Shown here: piece after piece, positions 35,338-60,325 of the stretch
How positions within the stretch are numbered: position 1 is the stretch's first letter
Layout of the letters: each line of letters begins with the position of its first letter
NCBI GenBank assembly: GCA_010093605.1
Contig: MU004190.1
Coordinates: 248,001-312,000, forward strand
DNA from: Lophium mytilinum
Taxonomy: Eukaryota
Direction: 5' to 3'
DNA: 64,000 bases
Position numbers and translations under genes: made by a program
The notes under the pieces: model-generated
The model's input: the letters and a program-made list of their open reading frames with translations, nothing else
Told to the model about the DNA's origin: nothing
Database searches by the model: none

Positions 35338-36198
35338 TCACATGCAGGCCTCCTCCCAATACTTCTTCACCACAAGTCTCAGATTTTCGTCCGAGAAAGT
35401 TCTCATCCCCATGTCCACCACCTTCGCTCTGGACCTCCTCGTCGTCTCTGCCTCCCCCGTCTTCCCATTGCGCCCAACGTGCTCAACCAGCTCCCGCTTC
35501 ACAATACACCCTTCAACCGCCCAGCTAGGCACTGCCTCCTCATACACCACGCCTACATCCTTCATCATCTTTAGCACCTCCTCGCACCGCTTCCCATGCA
35601 GTTGTCGCGTACTAAAGAGCGTTCTCGCGAACGCGTTTACAGAATTCCTCACCGCGTCCCCACGACACCTCCATATCAAACAATTCACCGCCTCTTCTAC
35701 GCTCGGAACCCCAAACACTCTCGCGTCGAAATAAGCACTACCGAGCACCGTCTCTACATTCCGGACAGCCGGGTCCGGCATAGCAGCCACAGCCGCGGAA
35801 AGGTGCGCGTTGAACCGCACGCTCGTATATGCGGCGGCTAGGCTCCCTACTTTCTGCACTCGGTCGTTGAAGCAACCCAGCCCGCGTGGACATACTAGAG
35901 TTATCTCGTCGGACTGTGTGTATGCTATCGTAGCCGAGGGCAGGAAGTGGAGCAGATCGGCACATGTGTCGACCATTGCGGAGTGGATGCGCTCGTCGAA
36001 TGGACGCGCGAAATGGGCCGTGAATTTAGAGAAGGTGTGCCCGTCTAGGCGGAGTATCATTGGTGAGTCTGAGGGCATTCTGGTGTCCGTGACGGCTTCG
36101 TAGGTCTTCATGCGGGCTGCAAGGCTCAAACGAGGTAGGTCCAGTGGCGTCGCTTCTGGTGTTGAGGCTTGTGAGGCCGCTGTGAAACCCTCCATCAT
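35338..36198 (-). CDS. tRNA(His) guanylyltransferase family, Thg1-like protein (TLP type), intronless
   Basis: RMKTYE, LRLDGHTFSKFT..F.RPFD, AYTQSDEITL (catalytic Asp residues), FDARVF, WR..DAVRNS. Confidence 0.9.
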   Translation of the reverse strand: MMEGFTAASQASTPEATPLDLPRLSLAARMKTYEAVTDTRMPSDSPMILRLDGHTFSKFTAHFARPFDERIHSAMVDTCADLLHFLPSATIAYTQSDEITLVCPRGLGCFNDRVQKVGSLAAAYTSVRFNAHLSAAVAAMPDPAVRNVETVLGSAYFDARVFGVPSVEEAVNCLIWRCRGDAVRNSVNAFARTLFSTRQLHGKRCEEVLKMMKDVGVVYEEAVPSWAVEGCIVKRELVEHVGRNGKTGEAETTRRSRAKVVDMGMRTFSDENLRLVVKKYWEEACM

Positions 36199-36489
36199 TG
36201 CGAAGAAATGAGACGATGTGTTGCTCGGTGCGAGAGCAACGGACCAGGAGGTTAAGTAGGTTCGATGAACGTGAGTGACTCATTGAGGTAGTAAATCGGG
36301 CTGTGTGCAAATTAACGTCCGCATCTCAGCCTTGTCGTCATATAGGTTTGCTTCAATCATTGCGGGAGACCCAAAGTTGTTATATCATACTTTAACACAA
36401 ACTTAAACGCCTCCGAGAATACAACTAGGGAAGAAAGCACCTGATACGCGACGCCATTTTTTGAAGCTTTACGACCACATACAGTCTTG

Positions 36490-41152: not shown

Positions 41153-43365
41153 TCAAACCATCCAGCCCATGCTCGACCCAGTCGCATCCCAACCATCACT
41201 CAGCCCTAGGTCTAAATCTCCCCAAAGCTCATCGTTCAGCGAAAAGTCCGGTGCTGCGGAGAAGGTAGGCAAAGCGGAAATTGGGTCCAAAGCCGGAGTA
41301 GGCGTAGCGTGGAATCCGGCAGCCGTACTCGAGGGTATAATTGTCCCTAGTCCACCGTTAGTCAATGTATGCTTGACAGCAAAAGAAGGCGGGCGAAAAA
41401 CGTACCAGTATCGTTGCCAGGCGCAGGATGCGTGCATTCATGATCAAAGAATTCCTCCTTCCAGCATCTCATCGCATCATGCAATATTCCACCCGAAAGA
41501 CGGTTTCTCACCCGAAGAGTTATATTGATCGATCCATCGGGGTTACGAAACACTTTCTCGCTCTTCCAGATCTGCTCCGCAAACGCTGCACTTTTCTCAG
41601 CGTAGTCCCCTTTCTGGGCAGAACAAGACCGTGCGAAACGAACTCCAGTGCGAAACAAATCGAACCCGCGACTGTGGTCGAGATATCCTGCGAATGGGCC
41701 CTTGAGGATGCGAGCCATACTGGCCAAGCTTAGATGTGTGGTTGCCAGAAGAAACCGGGTGCATATTTGGTGTAGGCCATAGTCTCTGTCAAGGTCGCGG
41801 ATTTTCTCCAGGACACTTGATGTGGCGTTGAAGATCAATATGCAGGATTGCACGTCCAGAGTGGTTGCAGACTTGTAAAAATGCATTACGACGAGATCTT
41901 GACGAGCAGAGGCTATGTAGAGGCGGTCCCAGACTGAGCGAATATTAGCATAAGGAATCGCACGGTGTACTTTAGTCCCTACTCGATTGCGAAAGATTTT
42001 CTAAGCTGTCTAGTTCTGCGTTGAATCCCTTCAAAAGCGCGTCCATTGTACGCTCTTGCTGCGGTGTCATTGAGAGAAGCCCGAGCTCTAGTAATGCTTT
42101 ATGGGCGCGAGTGATTACGTTGCTAATCTGAATTTGTATTCTTAATGTCGCTGGTAGCTTCTCCAGTAAGGCTTTGAAGTGTATTTGCTCATTATAGATC
42201 TCGTACGAGACCAAGCTTGCTTGTCCACTACCAAAGCACGTCCTGATGATCCCGATTAATGATGGTGGTTGTGGAATCAGAGTTAAATAGTGTACCTTTG
42301 GTATGTACTGACGATATATACCCACATCTCTGCTCTGCGTACGGGTTCTTGTTCAGGTAATTTAAGGCATTTCTTTGAAAACTCTTGACTGAAAGTAGGT
42401 GTATGTAGACCGCATTGCATCGCCATCTGAATCAGAGTGCCCCCAAGGAGGAAAGATGGATCGCGATAGAACGGACCGGAGGGAAACGGCCAATTGAGAA
42501 GGAGCATCAGTGCTTTCATACGCTCTATGGGTTTACTCCGAACGATTATAGACTGGACAGCTAGTTGAGTTACTGGTAGAGCTAAGGCTTGATTTAGGGT
42601 AGGTTGTCGGGCATATCTTCGAGATCCGATGGAAACGATGACCCAGAACAAGAATTGAGAATGTCGATAGAATGCATTTGGGGTTATGCTACGATCGAGA
42701 ATTGGGAGGATGGAATGATAGTCTTTGAAGTATCTGCGTCGCATCAAAAGATGATTGATCGAGATCGAGAAGCGAGACAACCTACAGTTCAAAGCAGTCA
42801 TCAATAATGCCAGAAGCAAGCTCCAGTCCGTCAATAGTCCTCGAAAGTGTTACGTCATCATGGGAAGATGGTTCATTACGACGCATCACTTTAGCAGCGG
42901 GAATCTGCGAGACATGCGAATTCTCTTCCTGGCGTGGAGTTGGAGCATCTTCAACGGGAAGCGCATCGCCAGGCGCTGCCAGAGAAGCAGACAAAAGCTG
43001 GTGTTTCAAGGCAGCAGTCTCTTCCTCAAGCTCCTGTAATCGTCTACACGGTAGACACTATTAGATCTATGGCAATTTCAGGAGCGGTTGGATGACGGCC
43101 GGCATACTTCCGCTTATGCGTCCTTTTGAAAGGAGCCGAAAAGATGCATGGGATCTTCAAGCGGCGGCAGCGCGAGCAAGCTAGCGGTTCTAGGCTACTT
43201 GCATCGCTTTCGCATCGCATCTGTTTTAGATGTTAGTTTTCATGGAGGGAGAAATGACAAACGGCCGCATGCTTTCTGTCAGACCTTTTGCTGTCTGCAT
43301 TCTGCGCATGCTGGTTTCTTTCGGACTGATGCGGATAGGGCATGTTGAGGTGGACTAGCTTCCAT
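41153..43365 (-). CDS. Zn(II)2Cys6 transcription factor (SEF1/LEU3-like layout), multi-exon
   Basis: ACAECRQQK|MRCESD...CSRCRRLKIPC across an intron, followed by the fungal TF middle region (YFKDYHSILPILD, LFWVIVSIGSR, AMQCGLH). Confidence 0.88.
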
Positions 43366-45628: not shown

Positions 45629-47532
45629 TCAAAGTTCGCCATGCAGGATAGCACTAAAGTGCTGCTCTAGTCGTGTCAACCTTCAAAGGATCGTTAGTAA
45701 GACACGTAATCACGAGCGACTCCCAGGGCAAGGACTTACTGCTCAATGACTACACGGTTGAAATGACTGTCGATATTCACCACGCTCGTCGCGTACAGAC
45801 TCCCAGTCAGACAGACCTTGACCAGGTCCCTATACGGGCGACCGAACGGAATATTCTCAATCTCCACGAGCACCTCGCCCTCTGTTGGGAGCTGGTCGGT
45901 GAATATCTCCCGGTACTGCAACCCCCTCCCAAGCTCGAAGAGTACAATACCGAGCCTGTGGAAGAGCGTCGCCAGTCTCACATCTCTCGCCCCGAGCAGA
46001 GACTGCGGGAGCTGATTCTTCTTCAAGCAGTCAAAGGGCGTGGCTGCGAGATCGGTCTGCGACGCGAGGGCGGATACGTAAGGTGAAATGCCGTTGCGTT
46101 CGTCGTACTGGCTGTTCGCGGAGCCGAAGAAGTAGAAGTCGTTCGTTTCGAACTGCTCGGAGATCCAGCCTGTCTCGTAGAGATGCAGGACGGAGATCGC
46201 GATGATACATGCGAGCTGTAGCCGCTTCCAGCAAGCGACGAGGGGAGGCACGCCGACTTGTGCTTTCAGAAGCTCGGCGAATGAGCAGCGGGAGAAGGCC
46301 TTTGCGATCAGAGGCGAGAAGGTAGTTGCGCCTGTTATCCCGTGGATGACGATCGTGGTGTGCTGGCTCTTGAAGAGTAGGGAGGCGGGAGGCTCGTTTG
46401 GCTTTAGCTGCTTCGTCTTGATGGCGGCGACAATTTCTTCGAACGTATTGGTCTTTTCCAGGGGAAGGACTGGCGTGGTTATCGCCGACGAGTAGATAGC
46501 TTCTGCGAGGAGCACGAATGGCTCTTCCACGTCCTTGCTGCTAGAAACTAGGAGAGGGAACTTAAACGAGCGGTCCGTTTGGTCAACGTAGTCCACCGGA
46601 CCAAACACACGCTCGAAATAGCCGGAGTCGGCTCGTTCTTTCTCGAGTTTGAAGTCGAGATTATGGCCGTTAGGGACTTGAAGCGCTGTATAGAGAGCTC
46701 TTGCTGCTGCCCGTATGCTACTTGAGCTATCCGGTTTGTTGCCCGCTGCAGATTTGGTCGTCCTGTCAGTTTCACACTGAGTAGAAATTGTTTGTAGAAG
46801 GGCGAGCCAATTATCGATATCGTTGACGAGAGATCTCAACTCTTCCTTGAGCGAGATGGACCATTTGAACTTCGTCCCCGGGCTAAGCTTCTGCTGTAGT
46901 ACCTCTTGAGCGAGCTTGGTTTTTGCTGCAGTCTCATCCGCTGGACCTTCCGCTGTCGACGCAATGCTTAGGTTTCTCTTCTTCTTCCAGATCCCGTTAG
47001 GATCTGAAACAGATAATCGCTTGTACCAACGCGGATTCGATTCTGGTTTCTTTTGCGTTTGTGGCTTCGATGACGGCGAACTACGGCCTGACACGCTAGG
47101 ACTTCGGCTGACAGAGTTTGAGGAAGTTTCTTTCATGGGACTCGGCGGTAGAGATTGCTGACTTGGCCCTTTCTCTATCGATGTGTCTCCTTCAAAATTG
47201 TCGAGGTCGATAGATCGTAACGTTCGAAAGGCTTCCCCAAACTTGACATTGAGCTGGGCGAGGCACTTCAACGCCATTTCACAACCCTCTTCGCCCCAGA
47301 GGTCTTTGAAGCCGTCCTCGAGGTTGTCTTTATGTCGCTGCCGAGCTTTCGTATTCCATGTTCTCTGCCATAATTCAAGCGTGTACTTCTGCGCTTCTAA
47401 CCTTTGAGTTGCGTTGACTAGCTGTTTCCCAGCCTGACTAGAATCGCGGAACAATCTGGCTAGCGTTGTCCCATTTTTAATTGCCAAATCGACAAATCCA
47501 ATGGCAGAGATGACCAAGCCTGCAACCTCCAT
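45629..47532 (-). CDS. HeLo/HET-s N-terminal-like domain plus kinase-like (DUF7580-like) C-terminal domain, 2 exons
   Basis: MEVAGLVISAIG hydrophobic start; RLEAQKYTLELW; KFKWSISLKEELRSLVNDID (HeLo-like end); RLQLACIIAISVLHLYETGWI...FYFF...PY...RLGIVLFELG. Last exon ...LTRLEQHFSAILHGEL. Confidence 0.75.
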
Positions 47533-47964
47533 TCTCCGGGCTGTTTAAAGTTTGTTCACGTCGGAGGGGTGGTGAGAGATATTCGCAGAGATGAGATGCG
47601 GGGCAAAGGTTTCCTACTCTAGGTACAAACTTAAAAAGCAAGCTGAGAAGCCTTACTATCGTTCTATGAAAACAAAGTATTTCTAAAAAAGTAAGTAAAC
47701 CTAAGTAATACGCAAAATATTGAGAGGGATTTAAGTATCAAATAATTCTATTATAAAGTATATAGAGCTTTAAAGATATGTTAAGGGATAGTTCAAGTGC
47801 CCACTAAGTAATGGGAGTCGACTCCCTATAAACCTAGCCATTGTTGGAACGACAGCAAGCCTCATGCGGGGTAATCGCGCGAAGATAGACCTCTGGACGC
47901 TTGGAACATTCATAATAGCCCACTAGGATACCATCCACAGTAACTAGCGACACTCGTAGTCAGA

Positions 47965-49960
47965 ATGGCAGAGATTCCAATATATCTCTCCATTCATACT
48001 CCAGTTGATGTTTCCAGCATCGACCTCACTGGTAGGCAGGAAAGCGACGGCGACGTCAGGGTAAGTGATTGTGTAACGAGATAACGTGAAACCAGACAAC
48101 TGACGTTTGCAAACGCTGTAGAAGACTCCAACTCCAACTATCCAGCTGTTCCATGACAAATATCCAAGCCCGCTTGAATTAGCCACGATCTGCGAAGATG
48201 ACATGGCTGAAATAGTCAAGCACCTAGCCAGACGTTCGACCTCTGCTTCTTTGGCGAATATCGAGGCGATATTGAGCCTCAAAGAATGCCTGGCTCGATT
48301 GAGAGAGTGGAAAAGGTGCCTCCCGCGCGCAGATGGCGACGGCCCTTCATCTGGCGACAGGGATTGGCTTGGCTTGGAGCCCCTTATGTCCAAAATTTCC
48401 AACTTGCTGCGACGACTTGCGGTTCAGCTTCTCCAGACTGGAACACTAATAGGGGGTGGAATAGGTGCGTTGAATTCCTTGTGGTGCTTCTTGGTGCAAA
48501 TGCTTGACGTTAAGGTTGCGTTAACATAACATAGAGCTACGGCTGTCTACAATGAGTGACTTCGTCAATGCTTTGCCTGTAGAAGATTCAGAAGATTCAT
48601 CACAAAGTCGAGGCTCTGGAGCAGAGCTCCACCGGAGCATGACTGGACCAATTCTCGATTCGGGTGCATCAAGGCTACGCGCGGCCGTCGAACAGCTTGA
48701 GGACGTAACAGATTGCCTCTGGAGCTACAAAACCGCTCTCAGCATTACCTCCGAAGCCTATAACCTGTCAATGGCCGATTGGCTTGTAGAGTTGCCGCAG
48801 GAGGTACAAGATAGAGGTAGTTTGTTGGAATCCCACCGCGGCACAACATTGCCAGTGGACGAACATGACTCCGTTGGTGCTGAAGGTGCGTTACCTAGTT
48901 GCTGTAACTTAAGAACCTCACTTAACGTGATATCAGAAGAATCCGGTGAACAACAGACTACTGCTCTAGGGGGTATGGGACCTATTTCCTGCTGCGTTTG
49001 CGAATTCACTAACCACGAGTAGAAATATCGAGAGAGGTTGTTGTACTTCCCCGTAAGAAGTCCTTTGAAAAGATTGACTTGGATGGCATAGCATGTCCAT
49101 TGGCCAGGGAATAGTGAGTAGTTCTGTTCCGAAAATATGGTACTGGCTGATATATTTGTGCAGCCGCAATGGGCATGGTGGGAAGGAATGGAAAGCTATG
49201 CACGACGCCTCCCTCGAGATTGGCGATCGTAAGTTCCCTACTCCTCACGATTAAGATCTCAGCAAATACGCAGTGCGGTGTATGCTAACGCCCGTCAGCG
49301 GACTGGCCAGCGGGCCATGTGGCTTGGTTGGATAAGCCCAAGCTCTCCGTCAAGTCAAGCTACTGCCGGAGGAAGATGGTCGCTGTTGGCGACGGTGCTT
49401 GCGGAAAGACGTGCACTTATATCCAGTTTTCGAAAGGCAATTTCCCGGAAGTCTATGTTCCAACGGTCTTCGAAAACTATGTCGCGGATGTGGAGGTTGA
49501 TGGCAATCATGTTGAGCTCGCTCTATGGGACACGCCTGGTCAAGAAGACTACGACAGACTCCGGCTCTTAATGTACCCTGATTCGCATGCCATCATGATC
49601 AGCTTCTGTATTGATAGCTCAGATTCACTCGTCAATACGGTTGCAAAATGGATCTCGGAGGTGACGCATTTTTGCGCTGGGGTACCAATCCTTTTGGCCG
49701 GATTCAAACACGACCTGAAGCATGACAAAGCGACAATCGAAATGATATCCAAGTGGTCACAGAAGCCGGTGACATATGGTCAAGGACTTGCAGTCGCTAA
49801 GTACATTGGTGCCGCCGCCTACGTCGAATGTTCAGCCAAGACTGGTGCTGGGATTCGAGAGGTTTTCGAAGCGATGACTCGGTTGACGCTCAGGAGCGTC
49901 AAGAAGGCAAAGAAGACTACGGAGGCTAAGCACAAGAACGCATCATGTAACTTAATGTAA
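47965..49960 (+). CDS. Helical N-terminal domain fused to Rho1/RhoA-like GTPase, 6 exons, 564 aa
   Basis: Exons 47965-48060, 48122-48464, 48535-48972, 49023-49113, 49164-49228 and 49299-49960 join in frame (1695 nt) with GT..AG introns. [30 protein letters not shown] and ECSAK motifs, with CaaX CNLM. Confidence 0.8.
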
Positions 49961-50593
49961 ATCGACGGACTGATGGGTTGTTGAGTTTGAATTGGGATGG
50001 TTGCAGATTTAGGGTACGAAATATATGTTAATGACCAGATTGGGACTGGCGCGTTCGTTAAGTACTTCACTAAGTCCAGAAGTAGCGAAAGTGCTTATAG
50101 TAGCCAAACTTGAAACATGTTTCTACCGTATAGTTTCTGAATATACGGACGCCACTCTTGGCAGCGCTATCTCAAGCATAATTTTTCAGCGTATCAGGTC
50201 AACGCCAGCGAGCTGAATTGTGGGCCACCCACCCCCTGAGTTGGCCCGACACCACCGCTAGGACCCACCTTCCAACGCTGTTGAGTTTAGGGGATCAGCG
50301 GGCTTGCCAAGACTGGCGTCCGTATATTCAAAAACTATACGGTACTGCACTAACCGGCTCAGCATGCGCCAGCCTAGAAGAGAATAAAGTTCCTAAACCG
50401 GCAATCGGTCGCACCTAGTTAAGCACCACCTGCATGTTAAGCGGGTGCACCCCGGTTCCGGAGTACAACTTACTTATATACCATACATCTATCCCACGCT
50501 CCTTACATCTTGCTTGACAAACTCTCATACTCTTAACCACTTCTGCCACTTTCAACAACGCAAACCACGAAACTCACACTCAATCATACCACC

Positions 50594-51121
50594 ATGGCCG
50601 CCACCGCCGACAAATCCAAACCCTACATCCCTCTAGCCGGTGCCGCTAACGACGGCTGGTCTACAGAAGACTCAGCAACAGCAACCTGCTTCTGCGGCAC
50701 CGTGCAGCTCGCCTTTCCTACCGCAGGCCCCGGCCTCGTCAGCACCTTTGTCTGTCACTGCACCGACTGCCGCAAGATCACGGCGTCCATGTTCGCCTCC
50801 AACTTCACCATTGCCGACGCCCATCTCACCCATGTCCGCGGCCGCGACAACCTCAAAACGTACGCCCAGTCGCGCACGATCGCCTCGGGAAAGTTGATGA
50901 CGAATTACTTTTGCTCCACCTGCGGGACGCTCATGTATCGTGTTGGTGAGGCGTTTCCGGGTCATAGTATTCTGCGCATTGGCACTGTGGACGACTTCAA
51001 TCTGCACGAGACGAAGTTGAAGCCGAAGCGGGAGATATATGTTAAGGATCGCTGCGGCTGGGTGAGCGCCATAGAAGACGCCCAACAGCTTGAGGCCCAG
51101 CGTAATAGGCAGAAGATTTAG
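50594..51121 (+). CDS. GFA/CENP-V (Mss4-like) zinc-binding protein
   Basis: CFCG, CHCTDCRK and FCSTCGT motifs. Confidence 0.92.
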   Translation: MAATADKSKPYIPLAGAANDGWSTEDSATATCFCGTVQLAFPTAGPGLVSTFVCHCTDCRKITASMFASNFTIADAHLTHVRGRDNLKTYAQSRTIASGKLMTNYFCSTCGTLMYRVGEAFPGHSILRIGTVDDFNLHETKLKPKREIYVKDRCGWVSAIEDAQQLEAQRNRQKI

Positions 51122-52355: not shown

Positions 52356-55300
52356 TCAATCCACACACCTCCCCACGCCCTCAGCTCCCCTTCTGGCTAC
52401 GGCAACATGCCATGGCACAACCCCGTGTCTACATCCCCTGACTCCCCTCAGCCTTGCCAATAGTCCCAATCCCCGGAACTGCCCAAGCACCTCCTTCAGC
52501 AGATTCTCTGCCGTGCTACGACTCTGCGCCGTACTCGTCCAACTCATGCTACTGGAACTCCTTTCCGTCCCCGCACCAGGGCTAACACCATCACTAGCTC
52601 CAGGAGTCGCCGGAAACGGAGACGTGGCAGCGCGTGTGCCACCGACTGCGCCAACCCAGAGAATATTAACATTGATAACGAGAGGGCCGCGGGAGCTGGG
52701 AGAGCTAGAAGGAGTGGTGGAGCCGGACCCGCGTTTGACAATGAGCCCACTGATGAGCGCGGGGCGGTAGTCGATGGTGGAGTGCGAGTTATGGAGGCGG
52801 TGGGAGAGGATGAGGCCCCAAGTTTCATCGGTGACGTCGACGAGGCGGGCGTCTGGGTCTGCGCTGGGATCTATGGCGTCCGAGGGGGTCGCGGCAGGCG
52901 TGAGGCCGTGCTGGTCGGGGGAGACGCCAGGTTGGGGCGTTGAGACTGGTGTGGAAGCGTTTGGATCTCTAGAGGGAGCGGCGGTGGGCACGGTCGGGAG
53001 AGTAGGGGTAAGAGAGAGTGGCGGATTGGCATCGACGGTTAGAAGCGTGATGAAAAGGTTGAGCTGGGTGGGCGAGGAGGCGAGAAGGATCCATGCTAGA
53101 GATAATATTAGATATGTCAATAGTAAGGTCAACGAAAGCGTACCTTCGATTTCTTCCCGCTCCATCACGCCCGCCTTGGCGATGCAAATGCGCCACGTTA
53201 CCCTCCTGCTGTGTAGGATTTCGATAGTTGTCTGCCATATCTCTCGTGCGATTTCATTGAATGGTCTTCCCCTCGAGCTGTACGATACGACCGCCTGTGA
53301 TTTCCCGCAGCTGTCTGTCCATGCCGCTGTTATCCATGCGCCATCCAAGCTGATCGCATAGCCGAGATGCATATAAGAATTCTCCCGCAGAAGATCGGCG
53401 GGAGGATCAGATGCAAGCTTGAACTGAATGTTTCTCGGTAAAGCCTCCTCCAATTGGATAGATGGAGCAGAGAAAATGCTCAAAGGCGTCTTGTCGGAGT
53501 TGACCGCACTTGGAGGACACCTGTCGTATACCTCGCGAGCTAGACTCATGAGAGTGGTAGGCTCCAGCACTACCGGTGCGTCGAAAGAGGCAATGTACTT
53601 CATCGGTACGATCTGAAGTACTAGATCAGGCCTAGGGGTATTGGCTTGAGCCCCTTGCCCATATGATCCGAATAACGCCCAGAATGCCGAGCAGAGTTCC
53701 CACAGTGCAGCCGGCTCTGCAAAAGGGTCGACCATGTATATTACGAAAGCATCAATCTTCGAGCTGTCGTCCTTCTCTCGCATATCGAGATATGACTGCG
53801 AGAGCTCTTCTCCAAGTCGACGGCATGTCTCTCGTAATGCTTGGAGGACGGTACGTTTTGTAGCTGGACCTGTGACTCGTGTCGGAACTAGGCCGCCTTG
53901 GAAGTCTTCTATGGCATCGCTTCGAACATGAGTCCCTAACTTGCACCCTTCGTATACGATTCCAAGGTTGTTCAAGAACGTTTCTACTCGAGCTGTAAGT
54001 GACTCACTGTGTGGGTACACGCAATACGTTATAATGTTTTTAGGCCCGCTGGTTGGAGCAAGACCCAACGGTTCCCAGAACGACAGGGCGGTAGGGAGAA
54101 GATCCCAAAGGGCATCCGAACGTCGAACACGGATATGAGGAGGAGCAACGGGATAGATCAGATGTCCCGGAGAGCCATTGCCATCCCCTTGCCCGTAAGT
54201 ATTCATTCTCCGTGGGACCGCTTTCGGTAGATGTCCTTTTCCAGCCTGGGGAATATCGGGAAATACGTCCTGGACGCACACGAGCTTTGTAACGTCGCAA
54301 TCTACAGCCTTCTCGAAAAGTTGCCTAACGGTATCCTGAACAGTTTTGCTAGGGTCCAGAGCATCTCCTTCCAGTGGGCGGCCGAAACTAGATCCACTAA
54401 CGAAGCCACCCTCGTCATTGAGAATATCGAGCGTCGATGAAACAATTTGATCAGTCAGGATCTGAGCGACCGCTATCATATCCTTGCCACTCAATAAGAC
54501 CTTCTCGTCAGAGGGAGAGATTTCGATTTGGGAAAGCGTGGTGGGCATTGGAGACAGCCCTGGCGAAGGAAAGGCTACGTCTGCTCGAGCGACTGAAGAA
54601 TGCCTTTCTGAGGGAGAGGGAAGGCTAACTAGCGACCAGTCCCAAGGACTAGGTTCGAAGCCACCAAGACAGGCTTGATCGGTCTGGAGCAAAGGTCGAC
54701 CAAGTATATGCTCGGAGCTATCCCCACCAAGCTTGGAGTCTGCAAAAGACGTAACGGACAGCGGTGTCGCAGTCTCGTCAGCTATCCACTTCCTTTTAGT
54801 CGGCCATGAGGGAACTATCGGTAGGGAATCAAGTTTAGGAGATCGGATTTCGGGCTCGGAGTCTAAGTCGCCGCTCGAAGTGTCACTGATGTCGCCTTCA
54901 TCTATAGGAAGTTCTTCCTCCATGATAGTCCCCTTTCGGCCTAACGACCCGCGGAGGTCTAATAGGACCGAGAAATGTTGAGAAGTCGGCTTCTGCCGCT
55001 TTGAGAGTGGTGTTTGGGACTTGCTAGATACTAAAGATGAAGCATCTCCTCCCTCCGATTCTGGAAAATGAAATCGACCGCCACTGTATTTGGAGTCGGC
55101 GAGACTCATACTCGTGTTGAAAGCCAAGGGGTCGAAAATACTCCCCTTCCGTTGCACAGGAGTTTTGTGTCGACCTTCAGAGGTAACTCGATTGGGCATG
55201 CCATCGGGTCGTGGGAGCAGCTTCTTTATGATCAATTTCGGACTTAGAGGTGGGCTGGGAACATGCTCTTCCTCTTCTGGACTCTGGATTATTGGCTCAT

Positions 55301-57477
55301 CAACAGCCAAAACTCGGGTGCTTTCCTCTCCAGGTTTCGATTCTGTGTATTCGGGCTGATTAGGATCTGACTGAAGTCTTTTACCAGGCCTAAGATCCAG
55401 ATGTCGGTCCGTGGCATTGCCAACTTGTGCCAGAGGTTCAGAGGCAGGTTCCACCTTTAGGTCTTCCTTCTGGTCGTGACTTTCTCCAGCTTGCTGCTGT
55501 GACGTTTCCTCGGGTTGCGCGTCGTCATTTGTTCCTTGGACGCCGTCCATATCGCCAAAGTCGTCACCATCTGGCTCATCAAAGAAATTGAAATCAGCGT
55601 CCGTAACTCCATTCCCATCAAACGTGTCTTCGTCCATATCTTCGAAGAGGTCATCATTTCCACCATGGAGGGAAGAACTGAAGTTCAACTCTGGTTGTGA
55701 ATCGAAAGGATGGGAGAGCTTAGGTGACGTTCCAGGCATGCCCAGAAGCCCGGTCCCATCAGCGTCATTTGTTCCTGGGAGATCGGATGAACGCGGGTTC
55801 GAGTCTTGAGATAGCATGCCGTCCATACTTCCGATCGGACCTGAAATGTGCGGAATATCTCCCGCAGAAGATACAACAGGGCCTTGGGGAGCGACTCCAT
55901 CCGGTGGGGTTGGATAAACACCGCTCACCGGCTGCAGATCACCCCAAGCTCCAGTTCGAGAATATAGTGGGGATGAAGGGTATAGCACATTAGAATCATC
56001 CTTTGTCTGAGCCTCCTCTTCGGCCTGTTGAGCCTTTCGACGAGCTTCTTGCGCTTTATCCCTTTCTGGTTTATTACAGAACCATTGCTGTGCTAAGTCC
56101 AAAGGATCTTGATATCCCATCGACTCAGGCGTCTGAAACCAATCCAAGCCCTGCTCCGCCGAGTTTTGTGAAGTAAGATGGTCTTCAAGTCCTAAAGGAG
56201 TACGGACCGAAGCCGCGGGGTCCCATCCCTGCTTTGAAGAGTCGTAGGAAAAGCAAAGCCCGGATGGCCAAAGCAGTTCATAGGCCTGGTTAGCAAGGGA
56301 TGGGCTATCCAACTCAGACGGTATGGTGTCGGACGCGATTTGAATCCTAGCCCAAGGCTTAGTACCGTAATCCTGCACAAATGAGCCTAAGCCCTTTCTC
56401 GCTAGCCAACTTTTGGCGTGGGTTTTCCAATTATGAATGTCGTCAGCCTCATTTTTGATCCTTGGACGCTTTCGTTGCTCCCTGACGTTTTCGTTATCCC
56501 CATTACTTAGTCCTGAGAGCTCCAACCCAAGAAAGACTGCTAGATTGCCGCTCGGTGCAGTTCGCACGACACTGCCCGGTTTAACTTTCGAGGTTGGCGG
56601 TCCAAGGCTGCTCAGCTGATGCATATCAGGTCGCCACTTCGAACTTGTGGATATCACAAGGGACCCAGCACTGGTCCAATGTACGTCCACAGAAGTCAGC
56701 CATGACGGCTTGTCTGAGAAATCTGACTCTAGGCTTTTTGCGCGAGGCTCGGCGATTGAGAATGATACAAAAGTTCGATAGTTCAAAGGAATCATTCCAT
56801 GGTCTCGAGCTAGGCTGTACGATATGGATGCAACAACTGATGACATGAGTAGCTCATATACAGCGTAAACATCGTACTGTTGTGGCTCGCCACTCCCGCT
56901 GAACGCTAGGCTGATTTGAGAATTTGCCTGTGTGGCACGCAAGTTCCCCGCCTGATTGGAGCGAAGTGCACTTGGAGGGGCGTTTGTCGACGTTGCAGAT
57001 GTGGGAGGATTGGAAGGTCGGGCGGGTGCTCGTGCGAGTTCAGCAGCCCTCACCAATCCTGAAATCTCCGCTAGAAACTCGTCAGTGGTTTTCACAGACC
57101 CTTGATTTGGTACTCACCGTGAAATGCATATCCGTCAACGATAGGAGGTGCTGCAGGGGTCTGTGTAGCCTTTTCTGGCGTAATAGGTCGAAATAGCCAA
57201 AGCCATGATCGCGCAGTGTCATGGAGAACCAAATGGCGGGCTTGCCTAAGAGTGCATTCGACAGTGCCTAGATCCGCAGCTAGCCCTGTCTTTTCATCTG
57301 ATGGACTCGGAGGGGAATTCGCCGTTCTTTTGATTGAGAATGCCTGGTATGCGACAGCTTCAAATTCGCCCTAGTAAGCAGATGTTAGTGTCGCTATCGA
57401 TCACTACACGAAGGTAATCGCAATGGGGTACTTACGACAGCTTGCACGTTAGTGTTGCAAGTCTTGACGAATTCCAT
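52356..57477 (-). CDS. MED13: Mediator complex subunit 13 (Srb9/Ssn2), multi-exon
   Basis: Start MEFVKTCNTN at 57477; VYPTPPDG, VTDADFNFFDEP, LSFWEPLGLAP..GPKN, HLGYAISLDGAWITAAWTD and PWHVA motifs. Confidence 0.93.
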
Positions 57478-58056: not shown

Positions 58057-60325
58057 ATGAAGCTCTCAAACCAGTCTGCTGTGCCAGTATATACTATCGC
58101 TGGCTCAAATACCTCCCGACCACTTCCAGACTGGCTCATTCGCAAAAGGAAACGCAGCTTAAAAAATGATCCCGAGTTCGCGAACCGCGTAGAACTCCTT
58201 CAAGATTTCGAATTTGAGGAAGCCAGCTCGTGCGTACGAGTGAGCGAAGATGGCGACTGGGTGATGAGCACAGGTATGTATTTTAGTCTCAAGTATCATT
58301 CAGTATACTCACTATCCGCTAGGAACTTACAAGCCTCAAATACACACGCACTACCTACCACATCTCTCCCTCTCATTCGCGCGACACACCGACACACTAA
58401 ACGATACGTTCATCCTCCTAGGCTCCGACTACACAAAATCGCTTCATCTCCAAACAAATCGCTACCTCGAATTCCACAATCCGGGAGGATGTCACTATGC
58501 GACTCGAATACCACGCTATGGGAGAGGCCTGGTGTACGATCGGCTGTCAGCAGAAGCGCTGGTCCCGGCTGTGGGCGTGAATGCAGACGGAAATGGCGAG
58601 GTCTTCCGTCTCAACCTTGAAGTGGGGCAATTCATGAAGGGCTACGAAGTGGATGTAGGTGGCGATGACTTCACATCCTCAGGCGGAGGTGCCCTACAAG
58701 GTGGAATCAACACCGGAAGCGTGAACGCAGCCACAATCGCCGAAGAGAGTCACAACCTGCTAGCGTTTGGCACGTCACTAGGCACAGTCGAGTTCTGGGA
58801 CTCGCGATCGAAGAGCAGGGTTGGGATTCTATCAGCACCACCTGGGAATGCGTTCGAGGGAAAACCTGAGGCGACCGCACTACAGTTCCATCGCTCTGGC
58901 CTCGAACTCGCTGCTGGCTACTCAACGGGCCAAATCCAACTCTACGACCTCCGATCTCCTGTCCCATTACAAAAACGTGACCAAGGCTACGGCTACCCCA
59001 TTCAAAATCTCATATACCTAAATCCCGGCATTGCAACCCGCGCACAATCCTCCGGGCCAAAACTCCTCTCAGCCGACAAGCGCGTCATCAAAATCTGGGA
59101 ACCCGAAGAGAAGCTCCCCTGGACTTCCGTCGAGCCAGCCGTTGGCGTCGACCTCCACCACGTCGAATGGTGTCGTGACAGCGGCATGCTCCTAACCGCC
59201 AACGAAGGAAAGCAACAACACGCCTTCCTAATTCCCCAGCTCGGCCCCGCACCAAAATGGTGTACGTTCCTCGACAACATCGTCGAAGAAATGGCCGAGG
59301 ACCCCGACGACCCGAACGCCTTCAGCAAAAACCACACAGGCGAGGTCTACGACAACCTCAAATTCCTCACCCTCCCGCAACTCCGCGCACTAAAGATCGA
59401 CCACCTCCTAGAAACGCATCCAGGCACGCTAAAACCATACATGCACGGCTACTTCATCAAGCAACAACTCTACGAAGAAGCCCGCCTCGTCGCCAACCCC
59501 GAGGTCTGGCAAGAACAGCGCCAAAAGAGCATCCAAGAGAAAATCACCAAAGAGCGCGAAAGCCGGATCCGCGGACACAAGAAAGTCGCCGTCAAAGTCA
59601 ACCGCAAGCTCGCCGAGCGCATCCAGGAGCGGCAAGAGAAATCCGAACGGCGCAGCGCGAAGAAACTCCTCGAGAAGCGCGGCGGCGACGTCGACACCGA
59701 CCTCCCCGACGCGCCTGCAAACGACGCTGCGGCAGAACAGCAAGCAGTGCCGAAGGGCCTCCTCGGCGACTCCCGCTTCGCCCGGCTCTTCGAGGACGAG
59801 GACTTCGAGGTCGACGAGGCCTCCCGCGAGTTCCAGTCCATCAACCCCAGCACCGTCGTCGCCGCGAAGCCGAAGGGTCTCACGGCTGTCGAGGAGGAGG
59901 AGCTCGCGGACCGCCGTGGTTCGAGCTCAGACGACTCGGACGACGACAGCGAAGGCGAGCAGCAACAAGCGGTGCCGAAGGAGAAGGACGACGGGCGCAT
60001 CTCGTCGGTGTCGTATAAGCGGCAGCCGCCGCGCCCGCAGCGCCCGAAGATGGTGGTGTCGAGCTCGAAGCGGAAGCCGGCGCAGAGTCGGGATCGCTCG
60101 TTTGGGGAGCGCGCTGCGGGCTTCAACGAGAAGAAGCCGATTTATAGTGGAGGGAGTAGGGGGGTGGTTGGGGAGCGCGAGATCACGTTTGCGCCGGTGA
60201 AGGAGAAGAAGGAGAGGCCGAAGGGGAGGGAGGAGAGGAGTGAGCGGAGTGATAGGAATGGTGGGCAGAGGCATGATCGGAAGGATAGGAGGAGCGCGAG
60301 TGGGAATGTGTTTAGGGGGATGTGA
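58057..60325 (+). CDS. ENP2: Ribosome biogenesis WD40 protein Enp2/NOL10, 2 exons
   Basis: RVELLQDFEFEEAS, TG|TYKPQIH across intron 58274-58322, IPQLGPAPKWCTFLDN, YMHGYF and NUC153-like DSRFARLFEDEDFEVDE. Confidence 0.95.

What the first reader, a model, noticed from the sequence alone, without database searches (positions are those of the whole stretch)
47965..49960. Rho1-like GTPase fused behind a ~360-aa helical N-terminal region
Seen: three separate ORF-track entries join through five canonical introns into one 564-aa frame. The GTPase has no ATG of its own before the RRK segment, lies in one exon, and keeps CaaX. It deviates at G3 (DTPGQ vs DTAGQ) and G4 (GFKHDL). The N-terminus has helical motifs ([20 protein letters not shown]). 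Established: ordinary Rho1 is a ~195-aa stand-alone protein, usually intron-containing in filamentous fungi. Inference: a captured, possibly retroposed, Rho copy serving as an integrated domain.
Basis: partly seen in the sequence, partly recalled or inferred. Interest (0 to 1): 0.72.

Follow-up and report, generated by a model that had tools for sequence, protein, structure and literature searches.

The report
Rho1-like GTPase with helical N-terminal extension
This is a real, spliced fungal gene for a Rho1-derived GTPase that carries a long helical N-terminal extension and a farnesyl-type membrane anchor, one member of a small conserved but unstudied subfamily whose function is unknown.

Summary
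A sixth in-frame intron (48886-48936) gives 547 aa and fits homologs better. A 271-nt public contig identical to the window joins 49036-49113, 49164-49228 and 49299-49426. The intron named as the refutation test (49229-49298) is therefore spliced out and the GTPase exon is joined to upstream exons. Two full-length homologs, P0007 (506 aa) and P0025 (516 aa, Paraphoma), share the whole layout. The G domain is Rho1-derived (A. fumigatus Rho1, E 4e-80). It lies in a separate paralog clade with support 99/95. That clade is marked by a GHVxWL motif before the G domain, a changed G4 motif and a CaaX ending in M, Q or S. DTPGQ and two switch-II changes are unique to this copy. The N-terminal region models as four long helices followed by a disordered linker. 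Homology to HeLo-like domains was tested and not shown. The capture is ancient. Retroposition could not be tested. The collection's own 194-aa call on this window (P0127) is probably truncated. The function is inferred only.

The parts
47965..48060 (+). Exon 1 with the start codon (MAEIPIY...).
   Evidence: The open frame starts at ATG 47965. The start is conserved with P0007, which begins MAETHIY.
48061..48121 (+). Intron 1 (61 nt, GTAAGT..TAG).
   Evidence: Canonical splice signals. No read covers it. It is supported only by the frame and the homolog alignment.
48122..48464 (+). Exon 2, which holds helices 1-3 of the predicted N-terminal bundle (about 48170-48232, 48248-48349 and from 48380).
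   Evidence: tblastn of P0007 gives E 4e-11. phmmer finds exon-sized fragments P0121 (8e-27), P0122 and P0123. Helices were mapped from the P0007 model.
48465..48534 (+). Intron 2 (70 nt, GTGCGT..TAG).
   Evidence: Canonical splice signals. P0121 reads into the equivalent intron after LIGGNIG.
48535..48885 (+). Exon 3, which holds helix 4 (about 48666-48773, containing [18 protein letters not shown]) and the start of the linker.
   Evidence: tblastn of P0007 gives E 3.5e-7. The motif is shared with P0007 and P0025. Helix mapping.
48886..48936 (+). Probable intron 3 (51 nt, in frame, no stop).
   Evidence: GTGCGT..CAG. Its 17 residues have no counterpart in P0007. No read covers it.
48937..48972 (+). 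Exon 4 (36 nt, linker).
   Evidence: Keeps the frame. There is a weak EESG/EDSG match to P0007.
48973..49022 (+). Intron 4 (50 nt, GTATGG..TAG, with CACTAAC 15 nt before the acceptor). If unspliced, the frame stops at 49020-49022.
   Evidence: ORF 48525-49022. No read covers it. This is the one junction on which the single-gene versus two-gene question hangs.
49023..49113 (+). Exon 5 (linker, with no in-frame ATG).
   Evidence: The X1 contig covers 49036-49113 and joins it to exon 6. The V.V.LPR motif is shared with P0007 and P0169.
49114..49163 (+). Intron 5 (50 nt).
   Evidence: Skipped in the X1 contig, GT..AG (table 5).
49164..49228 (+). Exon 6 (linker). It holds the in-frame ATG at 49198-49200 where the Mytilinidion model P0128 starts.
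49229..49298 (+).
   Evidence: Skipped in the X1 contig, GT..AG (table 5). The read-through N-terminus of P0148 (LAIVSS) equals the window's exon 6/donor read in another frame.
49299..49960 (+). Exon 7. It holds the GHVAWL motif (49313-49330), the Rho1-like G domain with G1 49388-49411, switch I 49454-49480, G3 DTPGQ 49529-49543, G4 FKHD 49703-49714 and G5 SAK 49832-49840, the polybasic KKAKK (49901-49915), the CaaX CNLM (49946-49957) and the stop.
   Evidence: Pfam Ras 6.6e-42. PDB Rho1 4e-80. Motif alignment. Coordinates.

Best explanation
One seven-exon gene (47965-49960, + strand) encodes a protein of about 547 aa, or 564 aa if intron 3 is retained. The protein has four parts:
- an N-terminal domain of about 180 aa, of no known family, predicted as four long helices;
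- a poorly conserved, probably disordered linker of about 110-130 aa;
- a conserved DP-W-P-GHVxWL motif;
- a Rho1-derived G domain followed by a polybasic stretch and a CaaX box ending in Met.

It belongs to a small, conserved, unnamed subfamily of Rho1 paralogs. The named members are Dothideomycetes.

The following mechanism is inferred, not shown.
1. The CaaX-Met is farnesylated (canonical Rho1 is geranylgeranylated) and, together with the polybasic stretch, holds the protein on a membrane.
2. The G domain binds guanine nucleotide, since G1, G2, G4-K/D and G5 are intact.
3. Its switch I is identical to that of Rho1, so it probably still engages Rho1-type exchange factors or GAPs.
4. The tethered helical domain is the built-in output or adaptor, whose position or availability follows the state of the switch.

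In this copy the G3 proline and two further switch-II changes probably alter GTP hydrolysis or regulator coupling. It may therefore be biased towards one state.
For: Gene structure
- The frame is open through canonical introns.
- Introns 5 and 6 are removed in a 271-nt contig with 0 mismatches.
- P0007 matches the window colinearly at exon 2 (4e-11), exon 3 (3.5e-7) and exon 7 (6e-92).
- The full-length alignment with P0007 and P0025 includes a shared start and shared motifs in the linker.
- In P0171 there is no Met before G1, and in P0169 the first Met lies inside strand 1. In those relatives the G domain cannot be a stand-alone product.

Rho1 origin
- Fungal Rho1 structures match at 4e-80, RhoA at about 1e-69 and Rac1 at about 1e-54.
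- Identity to a canonical Rho1 is 70.6% over 177 aa.

Separate subfamily
- The window plus 11 rows form one clade at 99/95, present in 99% of 200 bootstrap trees.
- 12 of 12 members end in C-x-x-M/Q/S, against C-x-x-L in 4 of 5 canonical rows.
- 8 of 12 have F in G4, where 5 of 5 canonical rows have C.
- Switch I is identical to canonical Rho1 (all).

N-terminal fold
- In P0007, helices 42-62, 68-101, 112-138 and 154-189 have block pLDDT mostly 70-90, and 190-310 is under 50.

From general knowledge (recalled): a proline at the third position of DxxG is normal in translation-factor GTPases and septins, so DTPGQ need not abolish nucleotide binding.
Against: - No read covers introns 1-4, so the link between exons 1-4 and exon 5 rests on the frame and on two homologs.
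- If intron 4 is not spliced, the upstream frame ends at 49020-49022.
- The collection's own call on this window is a 194-aa stand-alone GTPase (P0127).
- P0128, P0168, P0176 and P0206 are modelled as 230-235 aa, starting just before the GHVxWL motif.
- Run X1 is only guessed to be RNA.
- The P0007 model has mean pLDDT 47.8, comes from 8 sequences, and folded even the G domain poorly.
- Nothing here measures prenylation, nucleotide binding, localisation or any phenotype.
- How the Logan protein P0007 was called is not known to me.
Confidence: 0.72

Rival explanations
1. There are two products rather than one. The GTPase would be translated alone, as 194 aa from ATG 49376 or about 231 aa from ATG 49198. 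Exons 1-4 would be a separate upstream gene ending at the stop at 49020-49022, or an untranslated leader.
For: - P0127 (194 aa, the window's own call) starts at the Met after RRK.
- The Mytilinidion model P0128 starts at the exon-6 Met equivalent.
- The spliced contig begins at 49036, only 14 nt past the start of exon 5, so it does not show what lies upstream.
- ORF 48525-49022 ends in a stop if intron 4 is kept.
Against: - P0007 and P0025 carry both parts in one protein.
- Exon 5 is in the transcript, is in frame, and has no Met.
- Exon-5 and exon-6 motifs are conserved in P0007, P0169 and P0171.
- P0171 has no Met before G1.
- Intron 4 has a good donor, a CACTAAC branch site and an acceptor.
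- A start at 49376 would remove the RRK that precedes strand 1 in all canonical rows.
Confidence: 0.13
2. The N-terminal bundle is a membrane-attacking cell-death domain of the HeLo / HeLo-like / MLKL four-helix-bundle class. The Rho1-like domain would then be its regulator or a Rho1 mimic that senses interference with Rho1. That would make this an immune-type or cell-death-type protein rather than a morphogenesis GTPase.
For: - 10 of the 120 rows listed are ascomycete proteins with PF17111 (HeLo-like N) in front of a Rho1-like domain. Others carry an alpha/beta-hydrolase (P0036) or NACHT plus ankyrin (P0101). These are N-terminal domain types known from fungal NLRs (passages of PMC9815663; PMC12881547).
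- Structure hits to the P0007 bundle include Sw-5b SD (Z 13.0), Rx CC (10.8), NRG1.1 CC-R (10.3, rmsd 2.5), MLKL (9.9 and 9.5) and MLA13 (8.8).
- Atlas features place P0007 residues 1-300 near PF17111/SesA clusters at 0.84-0.87.
- The divergent neighbour looks HeLo-like by Atlas features at 0.93.
Against: - No Pfam hit on the N-terminal region of the window exons (E<=0.1) or of P0007 and P0025 (E<=1).
- hhalign of the family N-terminus against the PF17111-type N-termini gives probability 0.9%.
- All structure Z values are at or under the tool's stated noise level for helical bundles (about 13), and unrelated bundles (IncA, THATCH, designed proteins) score alike.
- Atlas scores under 0.9 are leads only.
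- The PF17111-Rho proteins lie outside this subfamily's clade. None of the 11 with an intact C-terminus has a CaaX box, unlike this protein (P0090, P0098 and P0104 end before their G domain is complete).
Confidence: 0.2
3. In this genome the copy is drifting towards a pseudo-GTPase or loss of function. On this view the unique changes at otherwise invariant switch-II positions reflect relaxed constraint rather than a new property.
For: Among the 17 rows, the window alone has:
- P in DTAGQ;
- L and M in RLRPLSY;
- S in DSPDS.

Its end branch is 0.24, against path lengths consistent with 0.08-0.15 for its two nearest relatives.
Against: - The 547-aa frame is intact through seven exons.
- The transcript is spliced.
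- G1, switch I, G4 K/D, G5 and the CaaX are all kept.
- DTPG also occurs in two other fused Rho1-like proteins, P0101 and P0080.
Confidence: 0.15

Closest known systems
Canonical fungal Rho1 / RhoA (for example Aspergillus fumigatus Rho1, PDB 6jik)
   Same: - It is the best sequence match: E 4e-80 and 70.6% identity to a canonical Rho1.
- G1, switch I, G5, the Rho insert region and a polybasic-CaaX tail are present.
   Different: - This protein is 547 aa rather than 192-199 aa.
- It lies in a separate clade, 99/95.
- The CaaX ends in M, not L.
- G4 has F for C.
- The surface after the insert changes from a charged to a hydrophobic pattern.
- It has the GHVxWL motif and a helical N-terminal domain.
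Database-only ascomycete proteins with a HeLo-like N domain (PF17111) followed by a Rho1-like domain (for example P0077 Cladophialophora psammophila, P0081 Podospora aff. communis)
   Same: A Rho1-derived G domain sits at the C-terminus behind a helical N-terminal domain and a long low-complexity linker.
   Different: - Their N-termini match PF17111. This one does not.
- None of the 11 with an intact C-terminus has a CaaX cysteine (P0090, P0098 and P0104 are cut short).
- They fall outside the GHVxWL clade.
- I found no paper describing them.
Trichoderma Rho6, a Rho with an N-terminal extension of about 130 aa, as described in review PMC8146680 (passage seen)
   Same: It is a lineage-specific fungal Rho paralog with an extension before G1.
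   Different: - The review reports a shorter extension and a changed G1 lysine. Here the extension is about 350 aa and G1 is intact.
- No Rho6 sequence was compared.
MLKL four-helix bundle / HeLo / plant NLR CC domains
   Same: The predicted N-terminal four-helix arrangement superposes on them: Z 8.8-10.8, rmsd 2.4-2.9, over 100-113 residues.
   Different: - No sequence or profile similarity was detected.
- The Z values are within the noise range for helical bundles.
- No kinase-like, NOD or amyloid motif is attached.

Membership tests
Rho family small GTPase (Ras superfamily) | Ras-type G domain recognised by the family profile | tested here: met
   PF00071 at 6.6e-42 and 143 bits, against a cut-off of 21.6.
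Rho family small GTPase (Ras superfamily) | Nucleotide-binding motifs G1-G5 | tested here: met
   GDGACGKT, switch-I T, DTPGQ (D, G and Q kept, A changed to P), FKHD (K and D kept) and SAK are all present. Actual binding was not measured.
Rho family small GTPase (Ras superfamily) | Rho insert region between G4 and G5 | tested here: met
   The region aligns without a gap to A. fumigatus Rho1 and canonical Rho1 rows.
Canonical Rho1 orthologue | Groups with Rho1 of other fungi rather than in a separate paralog clade | tested here: not met
   The window plus 11 rows form their own clade at 99/95, in 99% of 200 bootstrap trees. The bootstrap had not fully settled (correlation 0.959).
Canonical Rho1 orthologue | Stand-alone protein of about 195 aa | tested here: not met
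   The spliced frame is 547-564 aa. The GTPase exon is joined to upstream exons. Canonical rows are 192-199 aa.
Canonical Rho1 orthologue | CaaX ending in Leu (the geranylgeranyl type; this rule is recalled) | tested here: not met
   The window ends CNLM. 12 of 12 subfamily rows end in M, Q or S, while 4 of 5 canonical rows end in L.
HeLo-like N / PigL_N (PF17111) | Match to the family profile | tested here: not met
   There is no PF17111 hit on window exons 2 and 3 at E<=0.1 or on P0007 and P0025 at E<=1. The same scan does find it in P0077, P0098, P0084, P0086 and P0091.
HeLo-like N / PigL_N (PF17111) | Profile-profile similarity to N-termini that carry PF17111 | tested here: not met
   hhalign of 6 against 14 sequences gives probability 0.9% and E 0.062 over 31 columns. 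The query profile is thin (Neff 2.0).
HeLo / MLKL 4HB fold class | Four-helix bundle of that topology | tested here: inconclusive
   Four helices are modelled in P0007. MLKL scores Z 9.9 and 9.5, NRG1.1 10.3 and Rx CC 10.8, which is below the tool's helical-bundle noise level.
Fungal NLR (STAND) with an integrated domain | NACHT or NB-ARC nucleotide-binding domain plus repeats | tested here: not met
   No such Pfam hit occurs in any of the three window ORFs. A relative of another clade, P0101, does have NACHT plus ankyrin plus Rho.
Retroposed gene copy | Loss of the parent gene's introns, compared with the canonical rho1 of the same genome | not testable with these tools
   No whole genome is held, and only one Rho locus lies in the window. 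The G-domain exon has 0 introns against 6 in the 982 nt upstream, which the 5' bias of fungal introns also explains.

The most novel reading that the evidence does not exclude
The protein is a single-chain guard of Rho1. In this reading, a Rho1 look-alike keeps switch I and the residues that Rho-modifying enzymes act on, and is anchored by farnesyl at the membrane. It holds a four-helix-bundle executioner in check and releases it when something tampers with Rho1-type GTPases or their regulators.

This would be a fungal counterpart of the way animal pyrin monitors RhoA (recalled). The PF17111-Rho, hydrolase-Rho and NACHT-ankyrin-Rho proteins found would belong to the same wider, undescribed class. 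The HeLo-like/DUF7580 gene transcribed divergently 420 bp away could be a partner.
Probability: 0.1. Interest if true: 0.85.

Novelty: new variant of a known kind. Interest (0 to 1): 0.5.

Why it matters
Rho1 is the master switch of cell-wall synthesis and polarity in fungi and is treated as a single, small, invariant protein. This locus shows a conserved paralog line in which Rho1 has gained three things: a large helical N-terminal domain, a conserved pre-G motif, and a different predicted lipid anchor. At least one collection call models the gene as an ordinary 194-aa GTPase, so the extension is easy to miss.

The search also turned up many ascomycete proteins that put a Rho1-like domain behind domains typical of fungal cell-death and NLR proteins. 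I could not find this architecture in the fungal NLR and cell-death papers I checked. If these modules are functionally linked, small-GTPase signalling and regulated cell death in fungi would be connected in a way that can be tested directly.

Tried and rejected
- **RNA evidence.** No listed holder is on record as RNA. The single run X1 is 'RNA?' and covers only 49036-49426 plus a diverged 53-nt match, so exons 1-4 have no cover.
- **Whole genome.** Not held.
- **Word-index search with P0007 residues 1-300.** It found only P0007 itself.
- **phmmer of exon 2 against 1.84 billion representatives.** 5 hits came back. Three are exon-sized fragments, and two (P0124, P0125) I judge spurious because they are repetitive, with short matched stretches.
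- **Metagenome DNA scans.** The exon-2 alignment gave 0 relatives from 130 pattern matches. A typed 105-aa part of P0169 gave one locus, L001, which is a bacterial contig and a false hit. Intron positions in relatives therefore could not be compared.
- **Foldseek against the PDB.** The list was filled by Rho structures through sequence similarity and says nothing about the N-terminus.
- **Complex prediction.** The P0007 bundle (38-195) against its GHVxWL-plus-G domain (275-506) gave no verdict: score 0.01 against a mark of 0.34. This is neither for nor against intramolecular docking.
- **Exhaustive enumeration of intron chains.** It timed out. Hand-built models were used instead.
- **Pfam HeLo on the neighbour's N-terminus.** Not found: best 0.24, on a later stretch.
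- **Not attempted.** A single-origin (AU) test for all fused Rho1-like proteins, and any dN/dS analysis, because no relatives' DNA was available.
Full report
**The observation**

Starting at ATG 47965, the exons 47965-48060, 48122-48464, 48535-48972, 49023-49113, 49164-49228 and 49299-49960 join through five GT..AG introns of 50-70 nt. The result is one open frame of 1695 nt, which is 564 aa plus a stop.

A sixth candidate intron lies at 48886-48936. It is 51 nt, in frame and free of stops, and it uses the same GTGCGTT donor as intron 2. Removing it gives 547 aa. In the alignment with the homolog P0007 those 17 residues have no counterpart. I therefore take 547 aa as the likelier product and 564 aa as possible.

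The last exon encodes a Ras-superfamily G domain (PF00071, 6.6e-42) that ends in CNLM.

**Direct evidence on splicing**

One public run held part of the stretch. Its kind is only guessed to be RNA. Laid on the window, one 271-nt contig with no mismatch covers 49036-49113, 49164-49228 and 49299-49426. It skips exactly 49114-49163 and 49229-49298, and both skipped parts are GT..AG.

The opposite is seen: the GTPase exon is joined in frame to exons 5 and 6.

Nothing covers exons 1-4 or introns 1-4, and that gap matters. If intron 4 (48973-49022) were retained, the upstream frame would stop at 49020-49022.

**Evidence from relatives that the two halves are one protein**

I searched for longer relatives of the GTPase exon (147 proteins with E<=0.001 among 2238 candidates, 120 listed). 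Two hits matter here. P0007 is 506 aa, comes from a Logan contig, and shows 66% identity over 100% of the query. P0025 is 516 aa and is from Paraphoma chrysanthemicola.

Both align with the window's spliced product from the first residues to the CaaX box. Shared features are:
- the start (MAE..IY);
- [16 protein letters not shown];
- PLMSKIS;
- [18 protein letters not shown];
- a V.V.PR-type motif in exon 5;
- DP.WP.GHV.WL.

By tblastn, P0007 hits the window colinearly at exon 2 (4e-11), exon 3 (3.5e-7) and exon 7 (6e-92).

phmmer of exon 2 against 1.84 billion representatives found three exon-sized fragments, P0121-P0123 (8e-27 to 6e-8). These run on into intron-like sequence, as calls made on unspliced genomic DNA would. 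By the same reasoning, P0007 being one continuous 506-aa call suggests a spliced or intron-less template. That is my inference.

**The competing gene models**

The near-length search (4635 hits among 5013 candidates, 120 listed) returned P0127. This is a 194-aa protein identical to the window and flagged as the window's own. It starts at the Met that directly follows RRK (ATG 49376-49378).

Other relatives are modelled as 230-235 aa, starting just before the GHVxWL motif. P0128 of Mytilinidion resinicola starts at the equivalent of the exon-6 Met at 49198. P0168, P0176 and P0206 are similar.

Four points argue against these short forms being the whole story:
- Exon 5 is in the transcript, in frame, and has no Met.
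- P0171 has no Met anywhere before G1, and the first Met of P0169 lies inside strand 1.
- A start at 49376 would remove the RRK present in every canonical row.
- P0148 begins LAIVSS, which is the window's exon-6 end plus GTAAGT donor read in another frame. This points to a conserved intron-6 position.

I put the single fused gene at roughly 0.8-0.85 and the two-product rival at about 0.13.

**What the G domain is**

Against solved structures the best matches are:
- fungal Rho1 (A. fumigatus 6jik, 4.3e-80);
- human RhoA (about 1e-69);
- Rac1 (about 1e-54).

Identity to a canonical ascomycete Rho1 is 70.6% over 177 aa, and this is the only Rho-like locus in the window.

I built a maximum-likelihood tree of 63 G domains, made up as follows:
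- the window;
- 11 GHVxWL-type rows;
- 14 PF17111-Rho rows;
- 5 other fusions;
- 8 kinase-Rho rows;
- 21 canonical fungal Rho1 rows;
- 3 animal rows as outgroup.

P0097 and P0106 were dropped because my P-loop pattern did not find their motif. In this tree the window and the 11 GHVxWL rows form one clade with support 99/95, present in 99% of 200 bootstrap trees. The window sits next to P0128 and P0151 (100/92). The bootstrap had not fully settled, at correlation 0.959. The clade's position within the fungal Rho1 radiation is unresolved.

**Subfamily signature versus features private to this copy (12 subfamily rows and 5 canonical rows)**

Shared by the subfamily:
- the GHVxWL motif 15-45 residues before G1, in most rows;
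- CGKTC followed by T or A where Rho1 has L;
- G4 with F (8 of 12), L or M where Rho1 has C (5 of 5);
- a hydrophobic [18 protein letters not shown] where Rho1 has a charged stretch;
- a CaaX ending in M (10), Q (1) or S (1), where 4 of 5 canonical rows end in L.

By the textbook rule (recalled), that change switches the predicted lipid from geranylgeranyl to farnesyl. Switch I is identical to Rho1 throughout.

Private to the window:
- P for A in DTAGQ;
- L and M in RLRPLSY;
- S in DSPDS;
- N in KGTFPE.

DTPG also appears in two unrelated fused Rho1-like proteins, P0101 and P0080. A proline at that position is the norm in translation-factor GTPases and septins (recalled), so nucleotide binding need not be lost. 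An effect on hydrolysis or regulator coupling is plausible but untested.

**The N-terminal region**

No Pfam family matches the window's exon 2 or 3 (E<=0.1) or the N-termini of P0007 and P0025 (E<=1).

AlphaFold2 on P0007 with an 8-row alignment gave a poor model overall, with mean pLDDT 47.8. It did give four long helices (42-62, 68-101, 112-138, 154-189) with block pLDDT mostly 70-90, followed by a stretch under 50 up to the G domain. Mapped to the window, these helices fall in exon 2 (three helices) and exon 3 (one helix).

An all-against-representatives structure search gave these matches:
- Sw-5b SD, Z 13.0;
- IncA, 11.8;
- THATCH domains, about 11;
- Rx CC, 10.8;
- NRG1.1 CC-R, 10.3;
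- MLKL, 9.9 and 9.5;
- MLA13, 8.8.

The tool states that for helical bundles a Z under about 13 may reflect only a common arrangement, so this is a lead and not a finding. Atlas language-model features put P0007 residues 1-300 nearest unnamed ascomycete clusters (0.89) and PF17111/SesA clusters (0.84-0.87). All of these are below the 0.9 line. A profile-profile comparison with the PF17111-type N-termini of other Rho fusions was negative, at probability 0.9%.

I therefore describe the region as an uncharacterised four-helix domain and do not file it under HeLo-like.

**The wider pattern**

Among the 120 longer relatives listed:
- 10 carry PF17111 (HeLo-like N) in front of a Rho1-like domain. 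They come from Cladophialophora, Madurella, Podospora, Achaetomium, Fusarium, Venturia and unnamed sources. Three more (P0084, P0086, P0091) show PF17111 below its cut-off.
- P0036 has an alpha/beta-hydrolase-like region.
- P0101 has NACHT plus ankyrin.
- 9 rows, from basidiomycetes and Diversispora, have a protein kinase.

Many other rows, from animals and from some fungi, look like merged gene models, and I give them no weight.

None of the 11 PF17111-Rho proteins with an intact C-terminus has a CaaX cysteine (P0090, P0098 and P0104 are cut short). They also do not form one clade with the window's subfamily.

HeLo-like, lipase-like and kinase domains are the N-terminal effector repertoire of fungal NLRs (passages of PMC9815663; PMC12881547). 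Yet those two papers, and PMC12258605, do not mention Rho or small GTPases in this role. Full-text searches for rho1 + helo-like + fungal, and for Helo_like_N + GTPase, found no paper. A review notes a Trichoderma Rho6 with an N-terminal extension of about 130 aa (PMC8146680, passage). I saw passages only, not the whole papers or their supplements.

**How it most likely works**

Shown:
- a spliced transcript that joins the G exon to upstream exons;
- a conserved fused layout;
- a Rho1 origin;
- intact nucleotide-binding motifs;
- a CaaX-Met with a polybasic stretch.

Inferred:
- The protein is farnesylated and membrane-bound.
- It cycles or binds nucleotide, and engages Rho1-type regulators through its unchanged switch I.
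- Its own N-terminal bundle, on a flexible linker, is the output or adaptor.
- The hydrophobic patch after the insert and the GHVxWL motif are candidate docking surfaces within the molecule.

A complex prediction of bundle against G domain gave no verdict and is not evidence either way. The boldest reading still allowed is a Rho1-mimic guard wired to a cell-death-type bundle. I give it about 0.1.

**Retroposition**

The G-domain exon (662 nt) has no intron, while the 982 nt of coding sequence upstream has six. At the upstream density about four would be expected. This contrast fits a cDNA-derived G domain. It fits the known 5' bias of fungal introns equally well (recalled).

Without the genome's canonical rho1 or DNA of relatives it cannot be decided. 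Whatever the origin, it predates the divergence of the subfamily's members.

**Surroundings**

The gene lies between two neighbours:
- A divergently transcribed 598-aa single-exon gene at 45736-47544 (minus strand). It has DUF7580 at the cut-off, and an N-terminus that looks HeLo-like by Atlas features (0.93) but not by Pfam.
- A GFA-domain gene at 50537-51121.

Housekeeping genes lie further out: Med13, NOL10 and Thg1.

**Verdict**

This is a real gene and a real fusion in all likelihood. It is a member of a small, unnamed Rho1-paralog subfamily. Its novelty is architectural, and its function is unknown beyond inference. Interest is moderate.

Noticed in passing
window 45736-47544 (- strand): A single-ORF gene of about 598 aa is transcribed divergently, with about 420 bp between the two start codons. 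DUF7580 scores at its cut-off (27.2 bits against 27). ESM Atlas features of residues 1-330 score 0.93, with 178 shared features, against clusters that carry PF14479 HeLo. Pfam itself finds no significant HeLo match (best E 0.24). It may be a cell-death-type neighbour of the Rho fusion. No paper mentions DUF7580.
   Followed up: partly
window 50124-50163 and 50305-50344: A 40-nt inverted repeat, 95% complementary, with 141 nt between the arms, lies about 165 nt downstream of the gene's stop codon. It could be a small foldback or MITE-like element, or a structured 3' region.
   Followed up: partly
window 49376-49960: The protein collection holds a 194-aa stand-alone GTPase call on this window (P0127) that starts at the Met after RRK. 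Given the spliced contig and the homologs, this model looks N-terminally truncated.
   Followed up: yes
window 49511-49563: A second X1 contig (237 nt, word depth 702) matches only this 53-nt stretch of the [12 protein letters not shown] region, with 8 mismatches, and runs on unlike the window on both sides. It is probably the transcript of another Rho gene, perhaps the canonical rho1, of the same or another organism.
   Followed up: no
P0101 (1379 aa, ENA contig), found: This protein has a NACHT-type NTPase (NPHP3_N 6.5e-33), ankyrin repeats and a C-terminal Rho1-like domain. The Rho1-like domain also has DTPGQ and a CaaX ending in M (CQLM). It is an NLR-like protein with a Rho module at the sensor end.
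   Followed up: partly
P0036 (599 aa, Podospora aff. communis), found: An alpha/beta-hydrolase-like region (weak hits to Cutinase, Abhydrolase_6 and DUF676) is followed by a Rho1-like domain with a canonical-type CaaX, CIVL.
   Followed up: no
window 50537-51121 (+), 52356-57113 (-), 58268-60325 (+), 35338-36279 (-), 42283-42849 (-): The neighbouring genes by Pfam are: GFA domain (4.4e-27), Mediator Med13 (1.9e-75), NOL10-like nucleolar protein (7.9e-22), tRNA-His guanylyltransferase Thg1 (1.8e-31) and a fungal transcription-factor domain (6.7e-06). This is an ordinary chromosomal setting, not a repeat-rich island.
   Followed up: no
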